Shown here: positions 1-6,000 of the stretch, piece by piece | Layout: every line of letters starts with the position of its first letter | Position numbering within the stretch: position 1 is the stretch's first letter | Assembly (NCBI RefSeq): GCF_016026235.1 | Contig: NZ_CP065613.1 | Source of the DNA: Escherichia coli | Lineage (GTDB): Bacteria > Pseudomonadota > Gammaproteobacteria > Enterobacterales > Enterobacteriaceae | Reading direction: 5' to 3' (one strand) | DNA length: 64,000 bases | Position numbers: made by a program

Positions 1-3000
1 CCGTCATCAACTGGCCTGTCAGCCGGCATTTATCGCCGGTTTCAGCAGCCATTTGAATCAACTAAGTGACGACGATTTTATTAACGCCCTGCCCGATTTA
101 CGCGCGGCGATGGCCTGGCTACCACCACGAGAACGCGGGACGCTGGCGCATCAGGTGCTTGAGCATTATCAACTGGCGCAACTTCCCGTTTCGGCGCTGC
201 AAATGCCGTTGCATTGTCCACCACAAGCCATTGCACATCATCAACAACTCGAACAGCAGGCACTGGCATCGCTGCAAAACTGGGGAGTTTTCCATGTCTG
301 AACTGAACGATCTTCTGACCACCCGTGAGCTACAACGCTGGCGATTAATTCTTGGCGAAGCGGCAGAAACGACGCTTTGTGGGCTGGATGACAACGCCCG
401 GCAGATAGACCACGCGCTGGAGTGGCTGTATGGGCGCGATCCTGAACGGCTCCAGCGTGGTGAACGTTCCGGTGGATTAGGTGGCTCAAATCTCACCACC
501 CCTGAGTGGATTAACTGTATTCACAGGCTGTTTCCGCAACAGGTGATTGAGCGGCTGGAAAGCGATGCCGTACTGCGCTACGGCATTGAAGATGTGGTGA
601 CAAATCTCGACGTGCTGGAACGTATGCAGCCTTCTGAAAGCCTGCTACGCGCCGTTTTGCACACCAAACATCTGATGAATCCCGAAGTACTGGCTGCCGC
701 CCGCCGGATAGTGCGCCAGGTTGTTGAAGAAATTATGGCGCGCCTGGCAAAGGAAGTTCGTCAGGCTTTTTCTGGTGTCCGCGATCGCCGTCGCCGCTCA
801 TTTATTCCACTGGCGCGAAACTTTGATTTCAAAAGTACTCTTCGCGCCAACCTGCAACACTGGCACCCGCAACACGGCAAGTTGTATATCGAATCCCCCC
901 GCTTTAACAGCCGCATTAAACGCCAAAGCGAACAATGGCAACTGGTCTTACTGGTTGATCAAAGCGGATCGATGGTGGACTCGGTGATCCACTCTGCGGT
1001 GATGGCGGCCTGTTTGTGGCAGTTACCCGGCATTCGTACCCATCTGGTGGCGTTTGACACCAGTGTGGTTGATCTCACGGCAGACGTTGCCGATCCGGTA
1101 GAGTTATTAATGAAAGTGCAATTAGGCGGCGGAACCAATATCGCCAGTGCCGTGGAATATGGTCGGCAACTTATTGAACAACCAGCAAAAAGCGTCATTA
1201 TCCTCGTGAGCGATTTTTACGAAGGGGGTTCATCATCATTGCTGACGCATCAGGTGAAAAAGTGTGTCCAGAGCGGCATCAAAGTGCTGGGACTGGCGGC
1301 GCTCGATAGCACAGCAACGCCTTGCTATGACCGCGATACGGCCCAGGCGCTGGTTAATGTCGGCGCACAAATAGCCGCCATGACACCGGGCGAACTGGCA
1401 TCATGGCTTGCGGAGAATCTTCAGTCATGAATTCACTACGTCCGGAATTATTAGAACTGACACCGCAGGCCCTGACAGCGTTAAGCAATGCCGGTTTTGT
1501 TAAGCGCAGTCTTAAGGAACTGGAAAATGGCAACGTCCCGGAGATCAGCCATGAGAACGGCGCTTTAATCGCCACCTTCAGTGACGGTGTCCGTACCCAG
1601 CTGGCGAACGGCCAGGCACTGAAAGAGGCTCAGTGCAGCTGCGGGGCCAGCGGCATGTGCCGTCATCGCGTGATGCTGGTGTTAAGTTATCAACGACTTT
1701 GTGCCACCGTCCAGCCCACAGAAAAAGAAGAAGAGTGGGATCCGGCAATCTGGCTGGAAGAACTGGCTACCCTGCCCGATGCCACCCGCAAACGCGCGCA
1801 GGCGCTGGTCGCTAAAGGCATCACCATTGAGTTGTTCTGTACGCCGGGCGAAATTCCCTCTGCCCGCTTACCGATGAGCGATGTGCGTTTTTATTCCCGT
1901 AGCAGCATTCGTTTCGCCCGTTGTGATTGTATTGAAGGCACACTTTGCGAACATGTCGTACTGGCAGTACAGGCCTTTGTCCAGGCAAAAGCGCAGCAAG
2001 CGGAATTGACTCATTTAATCTGGCAGATGCGCAGCGAACACGTCACATCATCTGACGATCTGTTTGCCAGCGAAGAAGGCAAAACGTGTCGTCAATATGT
2101 TCAGCAACTAAGCCAGGCATTATGGCTGGGCGGCATCAGCCAGCCGCTTATTCACTACGAGGCCGCTTTCAGCCGCGCGCAGCAAGCAGCGGAACGCTGC
2201 AACTGGCGATGGGTGAGTGAATCGCTACGGCAACTGCGCGCCAGCGTTGATGCCTTCCACGCCCGCACCAGCCACTATCATGCCGGAGAATGCTTACGTC
2301 AGCTTGCGGCATTAAACAGTCGATTAAATTGCGCACAAGAGATGGCGCGGCGCGACAGTGTTGGTGAAGTTCCTCCTGTGCCGTGGCGCACGGTCGTTGG
2401 CTCTGGCATTGCCGGAGAAGCAAAGCTTGATCATCTGCGGCTGGTGTCTTTAGGTATGCGTTGCTGGCAGGATATTGAGCATTATGGTTTACGCATCTGG
2501 TTTACCGATCCCGACACCGGCAGTATTTTGCACCTTTCGCGCAGTTGGCCGCGAAGTGAACAGGAAAACTCACCGGCAGCTACGCGTCGGCTGTTTAGTT
2601 TTCAGGCTGGCGCACTGGCGGGTGGGCAAATTGTTTCACAAGCAGCAAAACGCAGTGCCGATGGCGAGCTGCTGTTAGCTACCCGCAACCGCTTAAGCAG
2701 CGTTGTGCCGCTGTCGCCTGATGCCTGGCAAATGTTGAGCGCGCCGTTACGCCAGCCGGGCATTGTGGCTTTGCGGGAATATTTACGCCAGCGTCCCCCC
2801 TCCTGCATACGGCCTCTTAATCAGGTCGATAACTTATTTATTCTGCCGGTCGCTGAGTGTATTTCGCTCGGTTGGGATAGCAGCCGCCAGACGCTGGATG
2901 CGCAGGTAATCAGCGGCGAAGGTGAAGATAATCTGCTGACGTTATCACTGCCAGCCTCAGCCAGCGCGCCTTATGCCATTGAACGCATGGCGGCGCTTTT

Positions 3001-6000
3001 GCAACAAACAGACGACCCCGTGTGTCTGGTTTCTGGCTTTGTCAGTTTTGTTGATGGGCAATTGACACTGGAACCACAGGTAATGATGACAAAGACTCGT
3101 GCCTGGGCGCTGGACGCAGAAACTGCGCCTGTGGTGGCATCACTACCTTCTGTCAGCGTTCTGCCTGTGCCGTCTACTGCTCATCAGTTGCTGATGCGCT
3201 GCCAGGCATTACTTATTCAACTGCTCCATAACGGCTGGCGCTATCAGGAACAGAGTGCTATTGGTCAGGCAGAGTTGCTGGCGAATGACCTCACCGCGGT
3301 GGGTTTTTATCGGCTGGCACATGTATTGGGACAATTTCGTAATACAGAAAGCGAGGCACGGGTAGAAGCAATGAATAACTGCGTTTTGCTGTGCGAACAA
3401 TTATTCCCCATGCTTCAGCAACAAGGATGAAATAGTGCTTTTTACTAAGAGTTCTACTCCAGTTCCGGACTGCTCACACCACGGTATTAGGCATATCCTA
3501 TATAGCCCCTGGTGAGAGTCACCAGTTCCTTGATTAAATAAAATGGAGTTTTACATGAAGGCTTTCAATAAGCTGTTTTCCCTTGTTGTTGCATCTGTTC
3601 TGGTTTTCTCTCTTGCTGGCTGCGGTGACAAAGAAGAATCGAAGAAATTCAGCGCCAATCTGAACGGCACTGAAATTGCCATTACCTATGTCTACAAAGG
3701 TGACAAGGTGCTTAAGCAATCTTCAGAAACCAAAATTCAATTTGCCTCTATTGGTGCAACCACCAAAGAAGACGCTGCCAAGACACTTGAGCCGTTAAGC
3801 GCCAAATACAAAAACATCGCGGGTGTTGAAGAAAAATTAACCTATACCGATACCTACGCGCAGGAAAACGTGACTATCGATATGGAAAAAGTGGATTTTA
3901 AAGCCCTGCAGGGTATTTCAGGAATCAACGTTTCTGCTGAAGATGCCAAAAAAGGTATCACTATGGCGCAAATGGAACTGGTGATGAAAGCCGCTGGTTT
4001 TAAAGAAGTGAAATAATCTGTCGGCGGCCATGTTTCGCATGGCCGCCATACCCGTCTTAGCTTTTCTTCACATGCTGGCGCGCTGCCAGTCCACGCAGAA
4101 AATAACGTAAAAATTGATCGCCGCATTCGCGGAAGTTTTTATGATCCGGTGCACGCATCATCGCCGTAATTTCCGGCATCGAAACGCGGAACTGCTGTTC
4201 GGTGAGGATCGCCAGAATGTCATCGGTTTTCAGCGAAAACGCGATGCGTAATTTTTTTAGCACGATGTTGTTATTAATGCGACGTTCCGGCTCCAGTGCC
4301 GGAGCAGACTCATCCTTGCCGCGTTTTTCATAAATCAGGCCATTGAGGAATGACGACAAAACAATGTCCGGACAACGCTGAAAACCCTCTTCGTCTTCTT
4401 TACGTAGCCAGACGGCGATCTGTTCCGCGGTGGCTTCGACATTACCCAGCGCCAGAATACGCACCAGGTCATTATTATTGGCTTTCAAAATGTAGCGCAC
4501 GCTGCGCAGAATATCGTTACTTAGCATGAGGCCTTCAGGTGTTGATGAGGCAAAAAGCCATTTTAGCAGTCTTTTACAGGCCAATCGCCTCTTTTAAGCT
4601 TTTCAGATAACGGCGGCTGACCGGCACGGTTAAGCCATTACGCAAAATCAACTCGGCCTGGCCGTTATCTTCCAGACGAATCTCCTGTAAATGCGCGAGG
4701 TTAACCAGATACTGACGATGGCAGCGCAGTAGTGGTGTACGACTTTCCAGGGTACGTAATGTCAATTCGGTAAAGCCCTCTTTCCCTTCGTGGCTGGTAA
4801 CGTAGACACCGCTCATCCGACTGCTGACAAATGCCACATCTTTCATTTGCAGCAAATAAATCCGACTATGCCCAGTACAAGGGATAAATTTCAGCGCCTG
4901 TTGATTTTCTGGTAACAGCGAAACATCCTGCTTGCTGCGTTCCTGCCGCAAACGCGCCAGCGTTTTCTCCAGTCGCGCTTCATCAATTGGCTTCAGCAGA
5001 TAATCAAAGGCGTGTTCTTCAAAGGCTTTAATGGCGTATTCGTCAAACGCGGTGAGAAAAACAATATACGGACGATGTTCCGGGTCGAGCATCCCCACCA
5101 TTTCCAGACCACTGATGCGCGGCATCTGGATATCGAGAAACAGCACATCCGGGCGCAGTTTATGCACCGCGCCGATCCCTTCCACGGCGTTTGAACACTC
5201 ACCAACGATTTCAATATCGCTCTGCTCCTGCAAAAATACGCGCAGGTTCTCCCGTGCTAACGGTTCATCATCGACAATTAAGACTTTAATCATGCCTCGT
5301 CCCTCCATGGTAGTCGTAACGTTATTCGGGTGTAACTATCAGGCTCACAGGCGACGCTTATCCCATAGTCATCGCCAAACCGTTCACGTAAACGCTTATC
5401 CACCAGATTCATCCCCAGCCCACTGGCATTGGTTACCGGTTGATACAAACCGGCATTGTCTTCGATCTCCAGCATCAAATGTTGCCCCTCACGTCGGGCG
5501 CTGATTGCCACTCGCCCTGTATCCAGCAGTTGTGATGTCCCATGTTTAATGGCGTTTTCCACTATCGGTTGCAGGGTAAACGCGGGCAATTGCTGCTGGG
5601 ATAATTCTTGCGGAATAGCAATGTTGACCTGCAACCGCGACTGGAAGCGCGCCTTTTCAATTTGCAGATAAGCGTTCACATGTTCAATTTCGTCGGCGAG
5701 AGTAACAAACTCCGAAGGCCGCTTTAAGTTTTTGCGGAAAAAAGTGGAAAGATACTGCACCAGCTGGCTGGCCTGTTCGCTGTCGCGACGGATCACCGCT
5801 TTAATGGTGTTAAGCGCATTAAACAAAAAATGGGGGTTCACCTGGGCGTGAAGCAGTTTGATCTCTGACTGGGTGAGCATCGCTTTTTGCCGCTCATATT
5901 GCCCGGCGAGGATCTGCGCCGAAAGCAGTTGCGCAATCCCCTCGCCCAGCGTGCGGTTGATTGAACTGAATAAACGGTTTTTGGCTTCATACAATTTGAT

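What the first reader, a model, noticed from the sequence alone, without database searches (positions are those of the whole stretch)
294..3430. Host yehP-yehQ (vWA plus SWIM zinc-finger) module of unknown function flanks the prophage
yehP has a vWA domain with a MIDAS-like motif and yehQ has two SWIM-type Cys/His motifs. With the upstream yehL/yehM genes (outside the window) this resembles MoxR-vWA style clusters whose function in E. coli remains unclear. It is conserved core genome rather than novel, but still an uncharacterised system in the window.
Basis: partly seen in the sequence, partly recalled or inferred. Interest (0 to 1): 0.25.

Follow-up and report, generated by a model that had tools for sequence, protein, structure and literature searches.

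The report
E. coli yehP-yehQ: uncharacterised vWA/SWIM genes
These are the ordinary E. coli core genes yehP and yehQ, the last two genes of a conserved but functionally unknown five-gene ATPase cassette whose accessory proteins look as if they bind DNA.

Summary
Window 294-1430 is intact yehP, a CoxE-type vWA protein with an invariant MIDAS motif. Window 1427-3430 is full-length yehQ, with two conserved CxCx5CxH SWIM fingers. The genes overlap (ATGA) and follow the 3' end of yehM. The stretch is in 5368 of 5426 complete E. coli genomes.

The prophage sits in mlrA at 7265-52571, four genes away. The real unit is a five-gene cassette, not a pair: a WGR-DUF4132 protein, the MoxR-type ATPase YehL, YehM, YehP and YehQ. 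All five genes are present in 71 of 80 loci from Proteobacteria and Actinobacteria, and the cassette also occurs on plasmids.

New here:
- YehQ models confidently as two SWIM fingers, a helical bundle, tandem OB-like barrels and a C-terminal helical bundle.
- YehM has a TraB/ChaN/EreA-like domain plus a solenoid.
- One variant operon fuses YehM to YehP and puts the WGR domain on a LigA-like DNA ligase.

Best guess, at about 0.45 confidence: an ATP-driven MoxR-vWA engine steered by nucleic-acid-binding adaptors. No defence-model hit, conserved client gene or conserved SOS box was found. The genes are already known, their function is still open, and interest is modest.

The parts
2..301 (+). 3' end of yehM (DUF5682 protein), last 99 codons; stop TGA at 299-301
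   Evidence: Pfam DUF5682 E 4e-4 on the fragment. Annotated yehM in near-identical genomes. Sequence read.
282..301 (+). yehM/yehP junction: GGGGAG (282-287) ahead of the yehP ATG (294-296), which overlaps the end of yehM by 8 nt (ATGTCTGA); suggests translational coupling
   Evidence: Read directly from the sequence. Coupling is an inference.
294..1430 (+). yehP: CoxE-type vWA protein, 378 aa (helical N-terminal part about 1-150, vWA domain 151-372)
   Evidence: VWA_CoxE 2.2e-72. 99% identical to K-12 YehP. dN/dS 0.04-0.07 against other Escherichia species.
957..971 (+). MIDAS motif DQSGS (D222-S226). The other MIDAS residues are T281 (1134-1136) and D307 (1212-1214).
   Evidence: Invariant in 33 orthologues (alignment A4).
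1412..1430 (+). yehP/yehQ junction: GGAGA (1412-1416), then ATGA in which the yehQ start (1427-1429) overlaps the yehP stop (1428-1430)
   Evidence: Sequence read. PGAP start of yehQ taken.
1427..3430 (+). yehQ: SWIM zinc-finger family protein, full-length 667-aa allele
   Evidence: AlphaFold2 model with pLDDT 92.3 and pTM 0.90. dN/dS 0.08-0.11.
1541..1705 (+). SWIM finger 1 (aa 39-93; C70, C72, C78, H80)
   Evidence: Pfam SWIM 7e-8, 32.3 bits. The four ligand residues are invariant in 63 sequences. Three strands plus a helix in the model.
1823..1996 (+). SWIM finger 2 (aa 133-190; C166, C168, C174, H176)
   Evidence: The ligand residues are conserved in at least 90% of 63 sequences. Pfam SWIM E 0.0043, 17.0 bits when scanned alone, below the cut-off. 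Same secondary-structure layout in the model.
2072..2359 (+). Four-helix bundle of YehQ (aa 216-311)
2384..3109 (+). Beta-rich middle region of YehQ (aa 320-561), read as two OB-like barrels
3176..3424 (+). C-terminal helical bundle of YehQ (aa 584-666). Codon 616 (GAG, 3272-3274) is TAG in K-12, so K-12 lacks the last 52 residues.
   Evidence: Model. BLASTP and DNA alignment with K-12.
3509..3525 (+). Perfect 7-bp hairpin (CTGGTGA-GAG-TCACCAG) between yehQ and yehR; possibly a weak terminator
   Evidence: Read from the sequence. Not called by the terminator scan, because the T-run is too short.

Best explanation
What it is (near certain): intact yehP and yehQ, the two distal, translationally coupled genes of the yehL-yehM-yehP-yehQ operon. 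They belong to a self-contained five-protein cassette:
1. A WGR-DUF4132 protein. In E. coli these are molR (yehF/yehH), yehI and their paralogues.
2. YehL, a MoxR-type AAA_5 ATPase.
3. YehM, a TraB/ChaN/EreA-like domain followed by an alpha-solenoid.
4. YehP, a CoxE-type vWA protein with an intact MIDAS site.
5. YehQ, made of two SWIM zinc fingers, a helical bundle, two OB-like barrels and a C-terminal helical bundle.

How it most likely works (inferred):
- YehL forms the ATP-driven ring. YehP, through its metal-ion site, is the adaptor that couples the ring to a target, as in other MoxR-vWA pairs.
- YehM rides on YehP as a scaffold and possibly a hydrolase.
- The fast-evolving YehQ and the WGR-DUF4132 protein are the specificity modules. 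They most probably recognise a nucleic-acid structure such as ssDNA, a nick or a DNA end.
- On this reading the cassette is a DNA-directed remodelling or surveillance machine, not a chaperone for one metabolic enzyme. Whether the DNA is damaged self DNA or invading DNA is left open.
For: Identity and domains.

Cassette:
- All five genes are present in 71 of 80 genome loci from gamma-, beta-, delta- and alpha-Proteobacteria and Actinobacteria. Gene order is permuted in Burkholderia and in Rhizobium/Agrobacterium.
- The same genes appear in Pfam-annotated contigs and on plasmids.
- No sixth gene is conserved in the flanks.

Engine:
- YehL has invariant Walker A, Walker B (EE), sensor and arginine motifs.
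- The YehP MIDAS motif is invariant.
- YehL and YehP stay 58-90% identical across phyla, whereas YehQ, YehM and YehI fall to 30-45%.

YehM-YehP coupling: they are fused into one 1107-aa protein in L088.

Nucleic-acid link:
- WGR domain on the DUF4132 partner.
- Two SWIM fingers on YehQ.
- The best structural matches of the YehQ middle region are all tandem-OB DNA binders.
- In L088 the WGR domain sits on a LigA-like NAD-dependent DNA ligase encoded first in the operon.
- E. coli molR is listed among LexA-regulated genes with a known SOS box (PMC6590174). A matching box lies 6 bp upstream of the yehF start codon.
- Deinococcus WGR and DUF4132 genes are induced by mitomycin C through DdrO/IrrE (PMC8533742).

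The adaptor role of vWA partners of MoxR ATPases comes from established knowledge of RavA-ViaA, CoxD-CoxE, Mg-chelatase and Midasin (summarised in PMC7159879, and PMC3893208).
Against: - No experiment bears on YehP or YehQ.
- The OB assignment rests on borderline Foldseek scores (best E 1.3e-3; TM 0.27-0.47), and OB folds and SWIM fingers can also bind proteins.
- The ligase-WGR operon is a single lineage.
- No LexA-type box was found upstream of the cassette in 52 other loci, either the E. coli type or lineage-specific types. The SOS link is therefore not a conserved property, and in E. coli it concerns molR, not yehLMPQ.
- yehL and yehM are silenced by H-NS/StpA in K-12 (PMC3686432).
- The cassette is often eroded in E. 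coli. K-12 yehQ has an amber codon, molR is disrupted in K-12, strain 300709 lacks yehK-yehL, and an O121 strain has all DUF4132 genes broken by IS elements. It may be of little consequence, or crippled, in the genome this window comes from.
Confidence: 0.45

Rival explanations
1. The cassette is a CoxD/CoxE-style maturation chaperone. The YehL-YehP pair inserts a metal or cofactor into a client protein, or assembles that protein. The client could be molybdenum-related, as the old name molR ('molybdate metabolism regulator') suggests. YehM, YehQ and the DUF4132 protein would act as assembly factors.
For: - YehP belongs to the VWA_CoxE family.
- MoxR-vWA pairs with known roles are mostly maturation factors (PMC3893208; PMC7159879).
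- The N-terminal domain of YehM resembles ChaN, a haem-binding protein, and its relatives.
- molR was described in 1990 as needed for molybdate use (cited in PMC8533742 and PMC7824862).
Against: - No client gene travels with the cassette. Flanks in 31 genera share no family in more than three loci, and none is molybdenum- or metal-cluster-related.
- The cassette sits on plasmids next to IS elements and a restriction system.
- molR is disrupted in K-12, whose molybdoenzymes are nonetheless functional (the disruption is; the functioning molybdoenzymes are from established knowledge).
- Molybdenum genes were not co-regulated with the Deinococcus homologues.
- WGR, SWIM and OB-like modules are unusual for cofactor insertion.
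Confidence: 0.2
2. The cassette is a dedicated anti-phage or anti-plasmid conflict system of the MoxR-vWA 'ternary' kind. YehQ and DUF4132 proteins would sense an invader, the MoxR-vWA switch would set a threshold, and the TraB/Tiki/EreA-like domain of YehM would be the toxic effector.
For: - Patchy distribution across phyla, and presence on plasmids and chromids.
- Adjacent to a type I restriction system, IS elements and an integrase on a 76.8-kb Iodobacter plasmid.
- A CHAT protease and an AAA_21 ATPase lie nearby in L094.
- Conserved engine with fast-evolving periphery, and paralogue expansion of the DUF4132 genes.
- Frequent loss and decay in E. coli.
- H-NS silencing, which is typical of acquired genes.
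- Architecture analogous to the systems described in PMC7159879.
Against: - None of YehF, I, K, L, M, P or Q hits any of the 5027 PADLOC models.
- There is no consistent defence-island context. Among 107 flanking ORFs only about four loci have plausible defence neighbours, and most neighbours are housekeeping genes.
- In E. coli the cassette is a fixed-position, near-universal core locus under purifying selection.
- YehL matches the bpMoxR model only below threshold (18.4 against 27 bits).
- No VMAP, iSTAND or known effector domain was found.
Confidence: 0.15
3. The cassette is a protein-complex remodeller in the manner of RavA-ViaA. On this reading the SWIM fingers and OB-like barrels of YehQ are protein-protein interaction modules, and the target is a housekeeping protein complex with no nucleic acid involved.
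For: - RavA-ViaA, the other E. coli MoxR-vWA pair, acts on respiratory complexes and has no client gene in its operon (PMC3893208).
- SWIM domains mediate protein binding in several eukaryotic proteins (own knowledge).
- The OB signal is borderline.
- A universal protein target would explain the absence of a conserved neighbour.
Against: - It does not explain why a WGR domain always accompanies the cassette, or why that domain moves onto a DNA ligase in L088.
- It does not explain the DNA-damage regulation of WGR and DUF4132 genes in two distant species.
Confidence: 0.15

Closest known systems
CoxD-CoxE (MoxR AAA+ ATPase with CoxE-type vWA protein; CO dehydrogenase metal-cluster maturation in Oligotropha carboxidovorans)
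   Same: YehP is a strong member of Pfam VWA_CoxE (243.5 bits). It has a helical N-terminal part plus a vWA domain with a MIDAS site, and it is encoded next to a MoxR-type ATPase.
   Different: No CO dehydrogenase or other client genes are nearby. Three further conserved proteins (YehM, YehQ, WGR-DUF4132) have no counterpart in the cox cluster. YehL belongs to its own MoxR subfamily.
RavA-ViaA, the other MoxR-vWA pair of E. coli
   Same: A two-part AAA+/vWA engine encoded in one operon. It is expressed at low levels, is chaperone-like, and has no client gene in the operon (PMC3893208).
   Different: It is a different MoxR subfamily. YehL matches AAA_5, and matches AAA_3 only at E 0.0054. RavA-ViaA has no SWIM, WGR, DUF4132 or DUF5682 partners. 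Its targets (Nuo, Frd, LdcI) are known, whereas nothing is known for Yeh.
vWA-MoxR-VMAP and iSTAND ternary conflict systems (Kaur, Burroughs, Iyer and Aravind 2020, PMC7159879)
   Same: A MoxR-vWA core plus obligatory extra components. The vWA proteins have a CoxE-like N-terminal helical domain. Distribution is patchy and horizontally spread.
   Different: No VMAP or iSTAND component and no recognised effector domain. bpMoxR matches below threshold. No PADLOC hit. The cassette is present in unicellular enterics as a core locus. The paper does not mention Yeh proteins.
Midasin/Rea1 (eukaryotic AAA_5 ring, long helical linker and MIDAS domain, remodels pre-60S particles)
   Same: The same three building blocks: an AAA_5 ATPase (YehL), an alpha-solenoid (C-terminal half of YehM) and a MIDAS-bearing vWA domain (YehP). 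The solenoid and vWA are fused in L088. The target of Midasin is a nucleoprotein particle (cited; the rest is own knowledge).
   Different: The blocks are split over separate polypeptides, and YehL has a single AAA module per chain. No ubiquitin-like substrate adaptor is known. The resemblance is architectural; homology was not tested beyond the shared Pfam families.
PARP1-type DNA-break sensing (zinc fingers plus WGR domain)
   Same: The cassette combines zinc fingers (SWIM, on YehQ) with a WGR domain (on the DUF4132 protein, or on a DNA ligase in L088). WGR is described as a DNA-binding domain (PMC7824862).
   Different: There is no PARP catalytic domain. SWIM fingers are unrelated to PARP zinc fingers. 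The two modules lie on different proteins. This is an analogy from own knowledge and was not tested.

Membership tests
vWA domain, CoxE-like (Pfam PF05762 VWA_CoxE) | Profile match above the curated cut-off | tested here: met
   E 2.2e-72, 243.5 bits against 26.4; covers profile positions 1-222 of 222.
vWA domain, CoxE-like (Pfam PF05762 VWA_CoxE) | Complete MIDAS motif DxSxS...T...D | tested here: met
   D222, S224, S226, T281 and D307 are invariant in 33 orthologues.
vWA domain, CoxE-like (Pfam PF05762 VWA_CoxE) | Metal binding and a Rossmann-like alpha/beta fold | not tested
Metal binding needs an experiment.
SWIM zinc finger (Pfam PF04434) | CxCxnCxH signature with a profile match above the cut-off (finger 1) | tested here: met
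   C70-x-C72-x5-C78-x-H80; 32.3 bits against 19.6; invariant in 63 sequences.
   The signature C166-x-C168-x5-C174-x-H176 is present and conserved in at least 90% of members, with the same strand/helix layout. The profile score alone is 17.0 bits, below the 19.6 cut-off.
SWIM zinc finger (Pfam PF04434) | Zinc coordination | not testable with these tools
   Needs metal analysis of purified protein.
MoxR-vWA system, YehL subfamily | A MoxR-type AAA+ ATPase with intact nucleotide motifs encoded with the vWA gene | tested here: met
   K-12 YehL matches AAA_5 at 1.2e-33. Walker A, Walker B (EE), sensor and arginine motifs are invariant in 17 taxa. The ATPase gene is adjacent in 73 of 80 loci. In the window itself yehL lies off the 5' end, so its presence in this genome is unknown.
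MoxR-vWA system, YehL subfamily | Physical interaction of the vWA protein with the ATPase, and stimulation of ATP hydrolysis | not testable with these tools
   Inferred from other MoxR-vWA pairs.
vWA-MoxR-VMAP / iSTAND ternary conflict systems | A MoxR of the conflict-system type (bpMoxR-like) plus a VMAP or iSTAND third component and effector domains | tested here: not met
   bpMoxR scores 18.4 bits against a cut-off of 27. No such Pfam domains occur on YehM, YehP, YehQ or YehI.
Known anti-phage defence systems (PADLOC-DB 2.0.0) | A match of any component to a defence-system model | tested here: not met
   No hits for YehF, I, K, L, M, P or Q at E up to 0.01.
CoxD-CoxE type cofactor-maturation system | A client enzyme encoded in the same cluster | tested here: not met
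   No conserved sixth gene. Flanks hold 110 different Pfam families, none in more than 3 of 107 ORFs.
EreA/ChaN/TraB/Tiki-like superfamily (for YehM, the partner whose 3' end is in the window) | Shared fold with conserved His/Glu motifs | tested here: inconclusive

The most novel reading that the evidence does not exclude
The WGR-DUF4132 / YehL / YehM / YehP / YehQ cassette is a previously unrecognised class of nucleic-acid-sensing AAA+ machine. Zinc-finger/OB (YehQ) and WGR modules would detect DNA nicks, ends or ssDNA, from damage or from an invading element. They would gate a MoxR-vWA motor whose output is delivered through the TraB/Tiki-like domain of YehM. That would make it a new DNA-repair-linked or immune system hiding in the E. 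coli core genome.
Probability: 0.25. Interest if true: 0.7.

Novelty: already known. Interest (0 to 1): 0.3.

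Why it matters
yehLMPQ is one of the few multi-gene operons of the E. coli core genome with no assigned function, and YehL is the name-giver of one of the seven MoxR subfamilies. Three results turn a 'hypothetical' label into experiments that can be done in E. coli:
- The unit is a five-gene cassette shared with Actinobacteria.
- The engine is far more conserved than the adaptors.
- The adaptors carry SWIM, OB-like and WGR modules, and in one lineage the operon includes a DNA ligase.

There is also a practical point. K-12 is a poor host for such work, because its yehQ has an amber codon and its molR is disrupted. The allele in this window is full length.

Tried and rejected
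- PADLOC scans of all seven Yeh proteins gave nothing. NCBIfam gave only sub-threshold noise.
- Sequence searches of the PDB found no meaningful relative, either with single proteins or with profiles of YehQ and YehM.
- Conserved SOS regulation was tested and rejected. The molR-type LexA box is in K-12. No E. coli-type box, and no Gram-positive, alpha-, Xanthomonad- or delta-type box, lies upstream of the cassette in 52 other loci.
- A conserved sixth gene or client was sought by clustering flanking ORFs and none was found. The one recurrent downstream ORF is RpoD, which reflects lineage synteny.
- Defence-island context was tested on 107 flanking ORFs from 31 genera. There were a few hits (MzaA twice, one Lamassu pair, one Gabija-like ATPase), most neighbours were housekeeping genes, and there was no control set, so the result is not convincing.
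- Phage records hold yehQ only as host flank in the VT1-Sakai entry.
- Longer YehQ relatives were scanned for informative fused domains. Only a vWA-SWIM fusion turned up.
- GC content does not mark the locus as foreign.
- Literature searches for yehP, yehQ, yehL, yehM, DUF5682 and SWIM+WGR found no functional study.

Full report
**1. Observation**

The region holds two long forward ORFs that overlap by four bases.
- 294-1430 encodes a 378-aa protein that is 99% identical to K-12 YehP.
- 1427-3430 encodes a 667-aa protein that is 95% identical to K-12 YehQ over 615 residues. The open frame reaches back to 1403, but PGAP starts yehQ at the ATG in ATGA.
- Bases 2-301 are the 3' end of yehM (DUF5682).
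- The junctions read GGGGAG-N6-ATGTCTGA (yehM stop and yehP start) and GGAGA-N10-ATGA (yehP stop and yehQ start). This is the usual signature of translational coupling, which is an inference.
- No sigma-70-like promoter is predicted anywhere in 1-4200, against 3.0 expected by chance. That fits internal operon genes.
- Antisense ORFs in the region are short (at most 126 aa) and have no support.
- The 3.6-kb stretch is in 5368 of 5426 complete E. coli genomes, almost always once and on the chromosome.

**2. YehP**

- Pfam VWA_CoxE matches end to end at E 2.2e-72.
- In an alignment of 33 orthologues, from Enterobacterales to Mycobacterium and Rhizobium, the MIDAS residues D222, S224, S226, T281 and D307 are invariant. 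Mean column identity is 74%.
- dN/dS against other Escherichia species is 0.04-0.07.
The motif is complete, not merely MIDAS-like.

**3. YehQ**

- Pfam finds one SWIM finger above threshold.
- The family has 872 cluster representatives at E up to 1e-3, mostly 640-700 aa long.
- In 63 of them, C70, C72, C78 and H80 are invariant, and C166, C168, C174 and H176 are at least 90% conserved.
- The second finger scores 17.0 bits when scanned alone, just under Pfam's cut-off of 19.6. So two SWIM-type motifs are real, and the second is divergent.
- An AlphaFold2 model built on that alignment is confident, with pLDDT 92.3 and pTM 0.90. It divides into an N-terminal helical segment, SWIM 1 (39-93), SWIM 2 (133-190), a four-helix bundle (216-311), a beta-rich region (320-561) and a C-terminal helical bundle (584-666).
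- Nothing beyond the SWIM fingers matches Pfam, and no solved structure is related by sequence.
- The best Foldseek PDB matches are uniformly tandem-OB nucleic-acid binders: RPA70 DBD-A/B on ssDNA, the Ifi202, MNDA and AIM2 HIN domains on dsDNA, baculovirus LEF-3, CTC1 and POT1. Probabilities are 0.85-1.0, but E-values are only 1e-3 to 5e-2 and TM scores are modest.
- I read the middle of YehQ as two OB-like barrels. That reading is suggestive, not proven.

**4. Setting in E. coli**

- Alignment with K-12 shows the window is collinear from yehM to the start of mlrA (1-7264). A 45.3-kb insertion (7265-52571) then interrupts it, bounded by a 25-bp duplication of mlrA sequence, and collinearity resumes (K-12 map).
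- The prophage is therefore in mlrA (yehV), the classical Stx-phage site. The VT1-Sakai phage record even carries yehP, yehQ and yehV as flank.
- yehR, yehS, btsR and btsS separate yehQ from the prophage.
- The cassette is often damaged in E. coli:
  - K-12 yehQ has a single G-to-T change that turns Glu616 (window 3272-3274) into an amber codon and removes the last helices.
  - K-12 molR/yehH is a pseudogene.
  - Strain 300709, the nearest match to the window, has a deletion that fuses a DUF4132 gene to the middle of yehM and removes yehK and yehL.
  - An O121 strain with the same prophage junction keeps yehLMPQ, but IS elements break all of its DUF4132 genes.
  - ST131 sublineages carry a resistance transposon in the same DUF4132 region (PMC9334617).
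- yehL and yehM are derepressed in hns stpA mutants (PMC3686432).
- Even so, yehQ is under purifying selection between Escherichia species, with dN/dS 0.08-0.11.
- Because the window starts inside yehM, I cannot tell whether the partners are intact in this genome.

**5. The real unit is a five-gene cassette**

- A scan of one genome per species with YehQ patterns returned 80 loci. They come from Enterobacterales, many Betaproteobacteria, Xanthomonadales, two Deltaproteobacteria, Rhizobium/Agrobacterium, and Actinobacteria (Mycobacterium, Mycolicibacterium, a propionibacterium).
- K-12 Yeh proteins were searched against the ORFs of these loci:
  - 71 loci contain YehI-like (DUF4132), YehL, YehM, YehP and YehQ genes together.
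  - 7 are cut by contig ends.
  - 2 (L057, L077) have P-Q-I with no L or M nearby.
- Gene order is usually I-L-M-P-Q. It is L-M-P-Q-I in Burkholderia and L-M-I-P-Q in Rhizobium/Agrobacterium.
- Pfam-annotated contigs show the same families: WGR+DUF4132, AAA_5, DUF5682, VWA_CoxE and the SWIM protein.
- YehR and YehK are confined to Escherichia and Klebsiella, and so are not part of the cassette.
- No other gene is conserved in the flanks. 107 flanking ORFs from 31 genera hit 110 different Pfam families, none in more than three ORFs.
- The cassette is also on a 76.8-kb mobilisable Iodobacter plasmid, on rhizobial chromids and on Streptomyces linear plasmids.
- Conservation falls into two tiers. 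Against E. coli, YehL stays 61-90% and YehP 58-84% identical. YehM is 33-71%, YehQ 30-65% and YehI 30-60%.

**6. The partners**

YehL:
- Matches AAA_5 at 1.2e-33.
- Has invariant motifs: Walker A G-x-PGTAKS, Walker B VVRFEEITR (Glu-Glu instead of the usual Asp-Glu), ATANT and ALKRRF.
- Looks catalytically competent.

YehM:
- Models well, with pLDDT 86.3.
- R10, H11, E35, H51, E83 and the C198-G-G-x-H202 motif are invariant. From memory they resemble the GxxH / E / GxxH motifs of the Tiki/TraB/EreA superfamily, so a hydrolytic activity is possible. This was not tested.

A distant variant operon (L088, where the YehQ homologue is 27% identical) is especially informative:
- YehM and YehP are one 1107-aa protein (DUF5682 3.4e-90, VWA_CoxE 9.6e-54).
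- The DUF4132 protein carries ankyrin repeats instead of WGR.
- The WGR domain (4e-18) sits at the C-terminus of a LigA-like NAD-dependent DNA ligase (ligase OB 5.7e-21, BRCT 1.4e-5) encoded first in the operon.

**7. What it probably does**

- Shown: domain identities, conservation, gene linkage and the fusion.
- Established for homologues: MoxR hexamers work with a vWA partner whose MIDAS site engages the target or the ring (PMC3893208; PMC7159879).
- Inferred: YehL-YehP is such an engine, YehM is bound to YehP, and the rapidly evolving YehQ and WGR-DUF4132 proteins confer specificity.
- Several lines point to nucleic acid as the thing recognised:
  - the WGR domain, described as DNA-binding;
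  - the two zinc fingers and the OB-like barrels of YehQ;
  - the ligase-WGR gene in L088;
  - the listing of E. coli molR among LexA-regulated genes, with the box AACTGGATAAAATTACAGGG 6 bp upstream of the yehF start codon;
  - mitomycin-C induction of Deinococcus WGR and DUF4132 genes.
- Against this reading:
  - The OB evidence is borderline.
  - The ligase variant is one lineage.
  - No LexA-type box accompanies the cassette in 52 other loci.
- I put the nucleic-acid-directed engine at about 0.45.
- The rivals are a CoxD/CoxE-like cofactor chaperone at 0.2 (no client gene found), a dedicated anti-phage system at 0.15 (no PADLOC hit, no consistent defence context, core locus), and a protein-only remodeller like RavA-ViaA at 0.15.

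**8. Comparison with known systems**

- YehP is a member of VWA_CoxE.
- YehQ is a SWIM-family protein.
- The operon is the type example of the YehL subfamily of MoxR systems.
- It is not a member of the RavA, CoxD/E (with client) or VMAP/iSTAND systems, nor of any PADLOC defence system. Their defining features were tested and not met.
- Architecturally it resembles a split Midasin: an AAA_5 ATPase, a solenoid and a MIDAS domain.
- In its sensors it resembles the zinc-finger-plus-WGR logic of PARP-type break sensors.
- Both of these resemblances are analogies, not memberships.

**9. Verdict**

- The finding is real and was correctly interpreted: ordinary, annotated, core-genome genes whose function is unknown.
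- As an object it is already known.
- What this analysis adds is the five-gene definition, the engine-versus-adaptor conservation split, the fold assignments for YehQ and YehM, the informative fusion and ligase variant, and the point that K-12 carries a nonsense allele while this window has the full-length gene.
- Interest is modest, at 0.3. About a one-in-four chance remains that the cassette is a new kind of DNA-sensing AAA+ system.

Noticed in passing
window 7265-52571: A 45.3-kb prophage is inserted in the 5' end of mlrA (yehV), bounded by a 25-bp duplicated host sequence. By ORF size and position it matches an O121 prophage annotated with a DinI-like gene, a SAM-dependent methyltransferase (window 8180-8848) and an IpaH-type T3SS effector E3 ligase (window 9164-10807).
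   Followed up: partly
window 35564-35874 (-): A cluster of four prophage tRNA genes: Gly-tcc, Thr-tgt, Arg-tct and one with anticodon cat. ARAGORN calls the last one Met, but the related O121 record annotates it as Ile.
   Followed up: no
window 3272-3274; L002 18943-18945: K-12 yehQ is a nonsense allele. A single G-to-T change turns Glu616 (GAG) into amber TAG and removes the last 52 residues. The downstream sequence is otherwise conserved and in frame. The window carries the full-length allele.
   Followed up: yes
L001 7866-12301; L085 1-9541: The cassette is eroded in different ways in close relatives. Strain 300709 has lost yehK, yehL and the 5' half of yehM through a deletion that fuses a DUF4132 gene to yehM. 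An O121 strain has every DUF4132 gene broken by IS421 or IS600 but keeps yehLMPQ. ST131 sublineages carry a blaCTX-M-15 transposon in the same region (PMC9334617).
   Followed up: partly
L088 1-11938: A variant operon from a metagenome has a LigA-like NAD-dependent DNA ligase with a C-terminal WGR domain, then AAA_5, then an ankyrin-DUF4132 protein, then a single DUF5682-VWA_CoxE fusion protein, then the YehQ homologue.
   Followed up: partly
L086 2809-20213 (Iodobacter fluviatilis plasmid pl1): On this plasmid the five-gene cassette is flanked by IS elements and sits next to a type I restriction-modification system with a PDDEXK nuclease and an integrase. yehQ appears to be split into two ORFs there.
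   Followed up: no
L002 4450-4469 (K-12, between metG and yehF): A LexA-box-like sequence, AACTGGATAAAATTACAGGG, lies 6 bp upstream of the yehF (molR) start codon. This is consistent with molR being listed among SOS genes. No comparable box was found at the cassette in other taxa.
   Followed up: yes
L002 12597-13685 (YehL) and 16 orthologues: The Walker B motif of the YehL family is invariantly hhhFEE (Glu-Glu) instead of the canonical Asp-Glu.
   Followed up: partly
window 1427-3430 compared with neighbouring genes: Within E. coli, YehQ diverges much more than its neighbours. It has 29 amino-acid differences from K-12 in 615 residues. YehP has 3 in 378, and YehR, BtsR and BtsS have none.
   Followed up: partly
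L057 and L077 (uncultured Betaproteobacteria MS502): YehP, YehQ and DUF4132 genes are present, but no YehL or YehM gene lies within the 5-8.6 kb upstream. These are the only loci where the engine seems to be detached.
   Followed up: no
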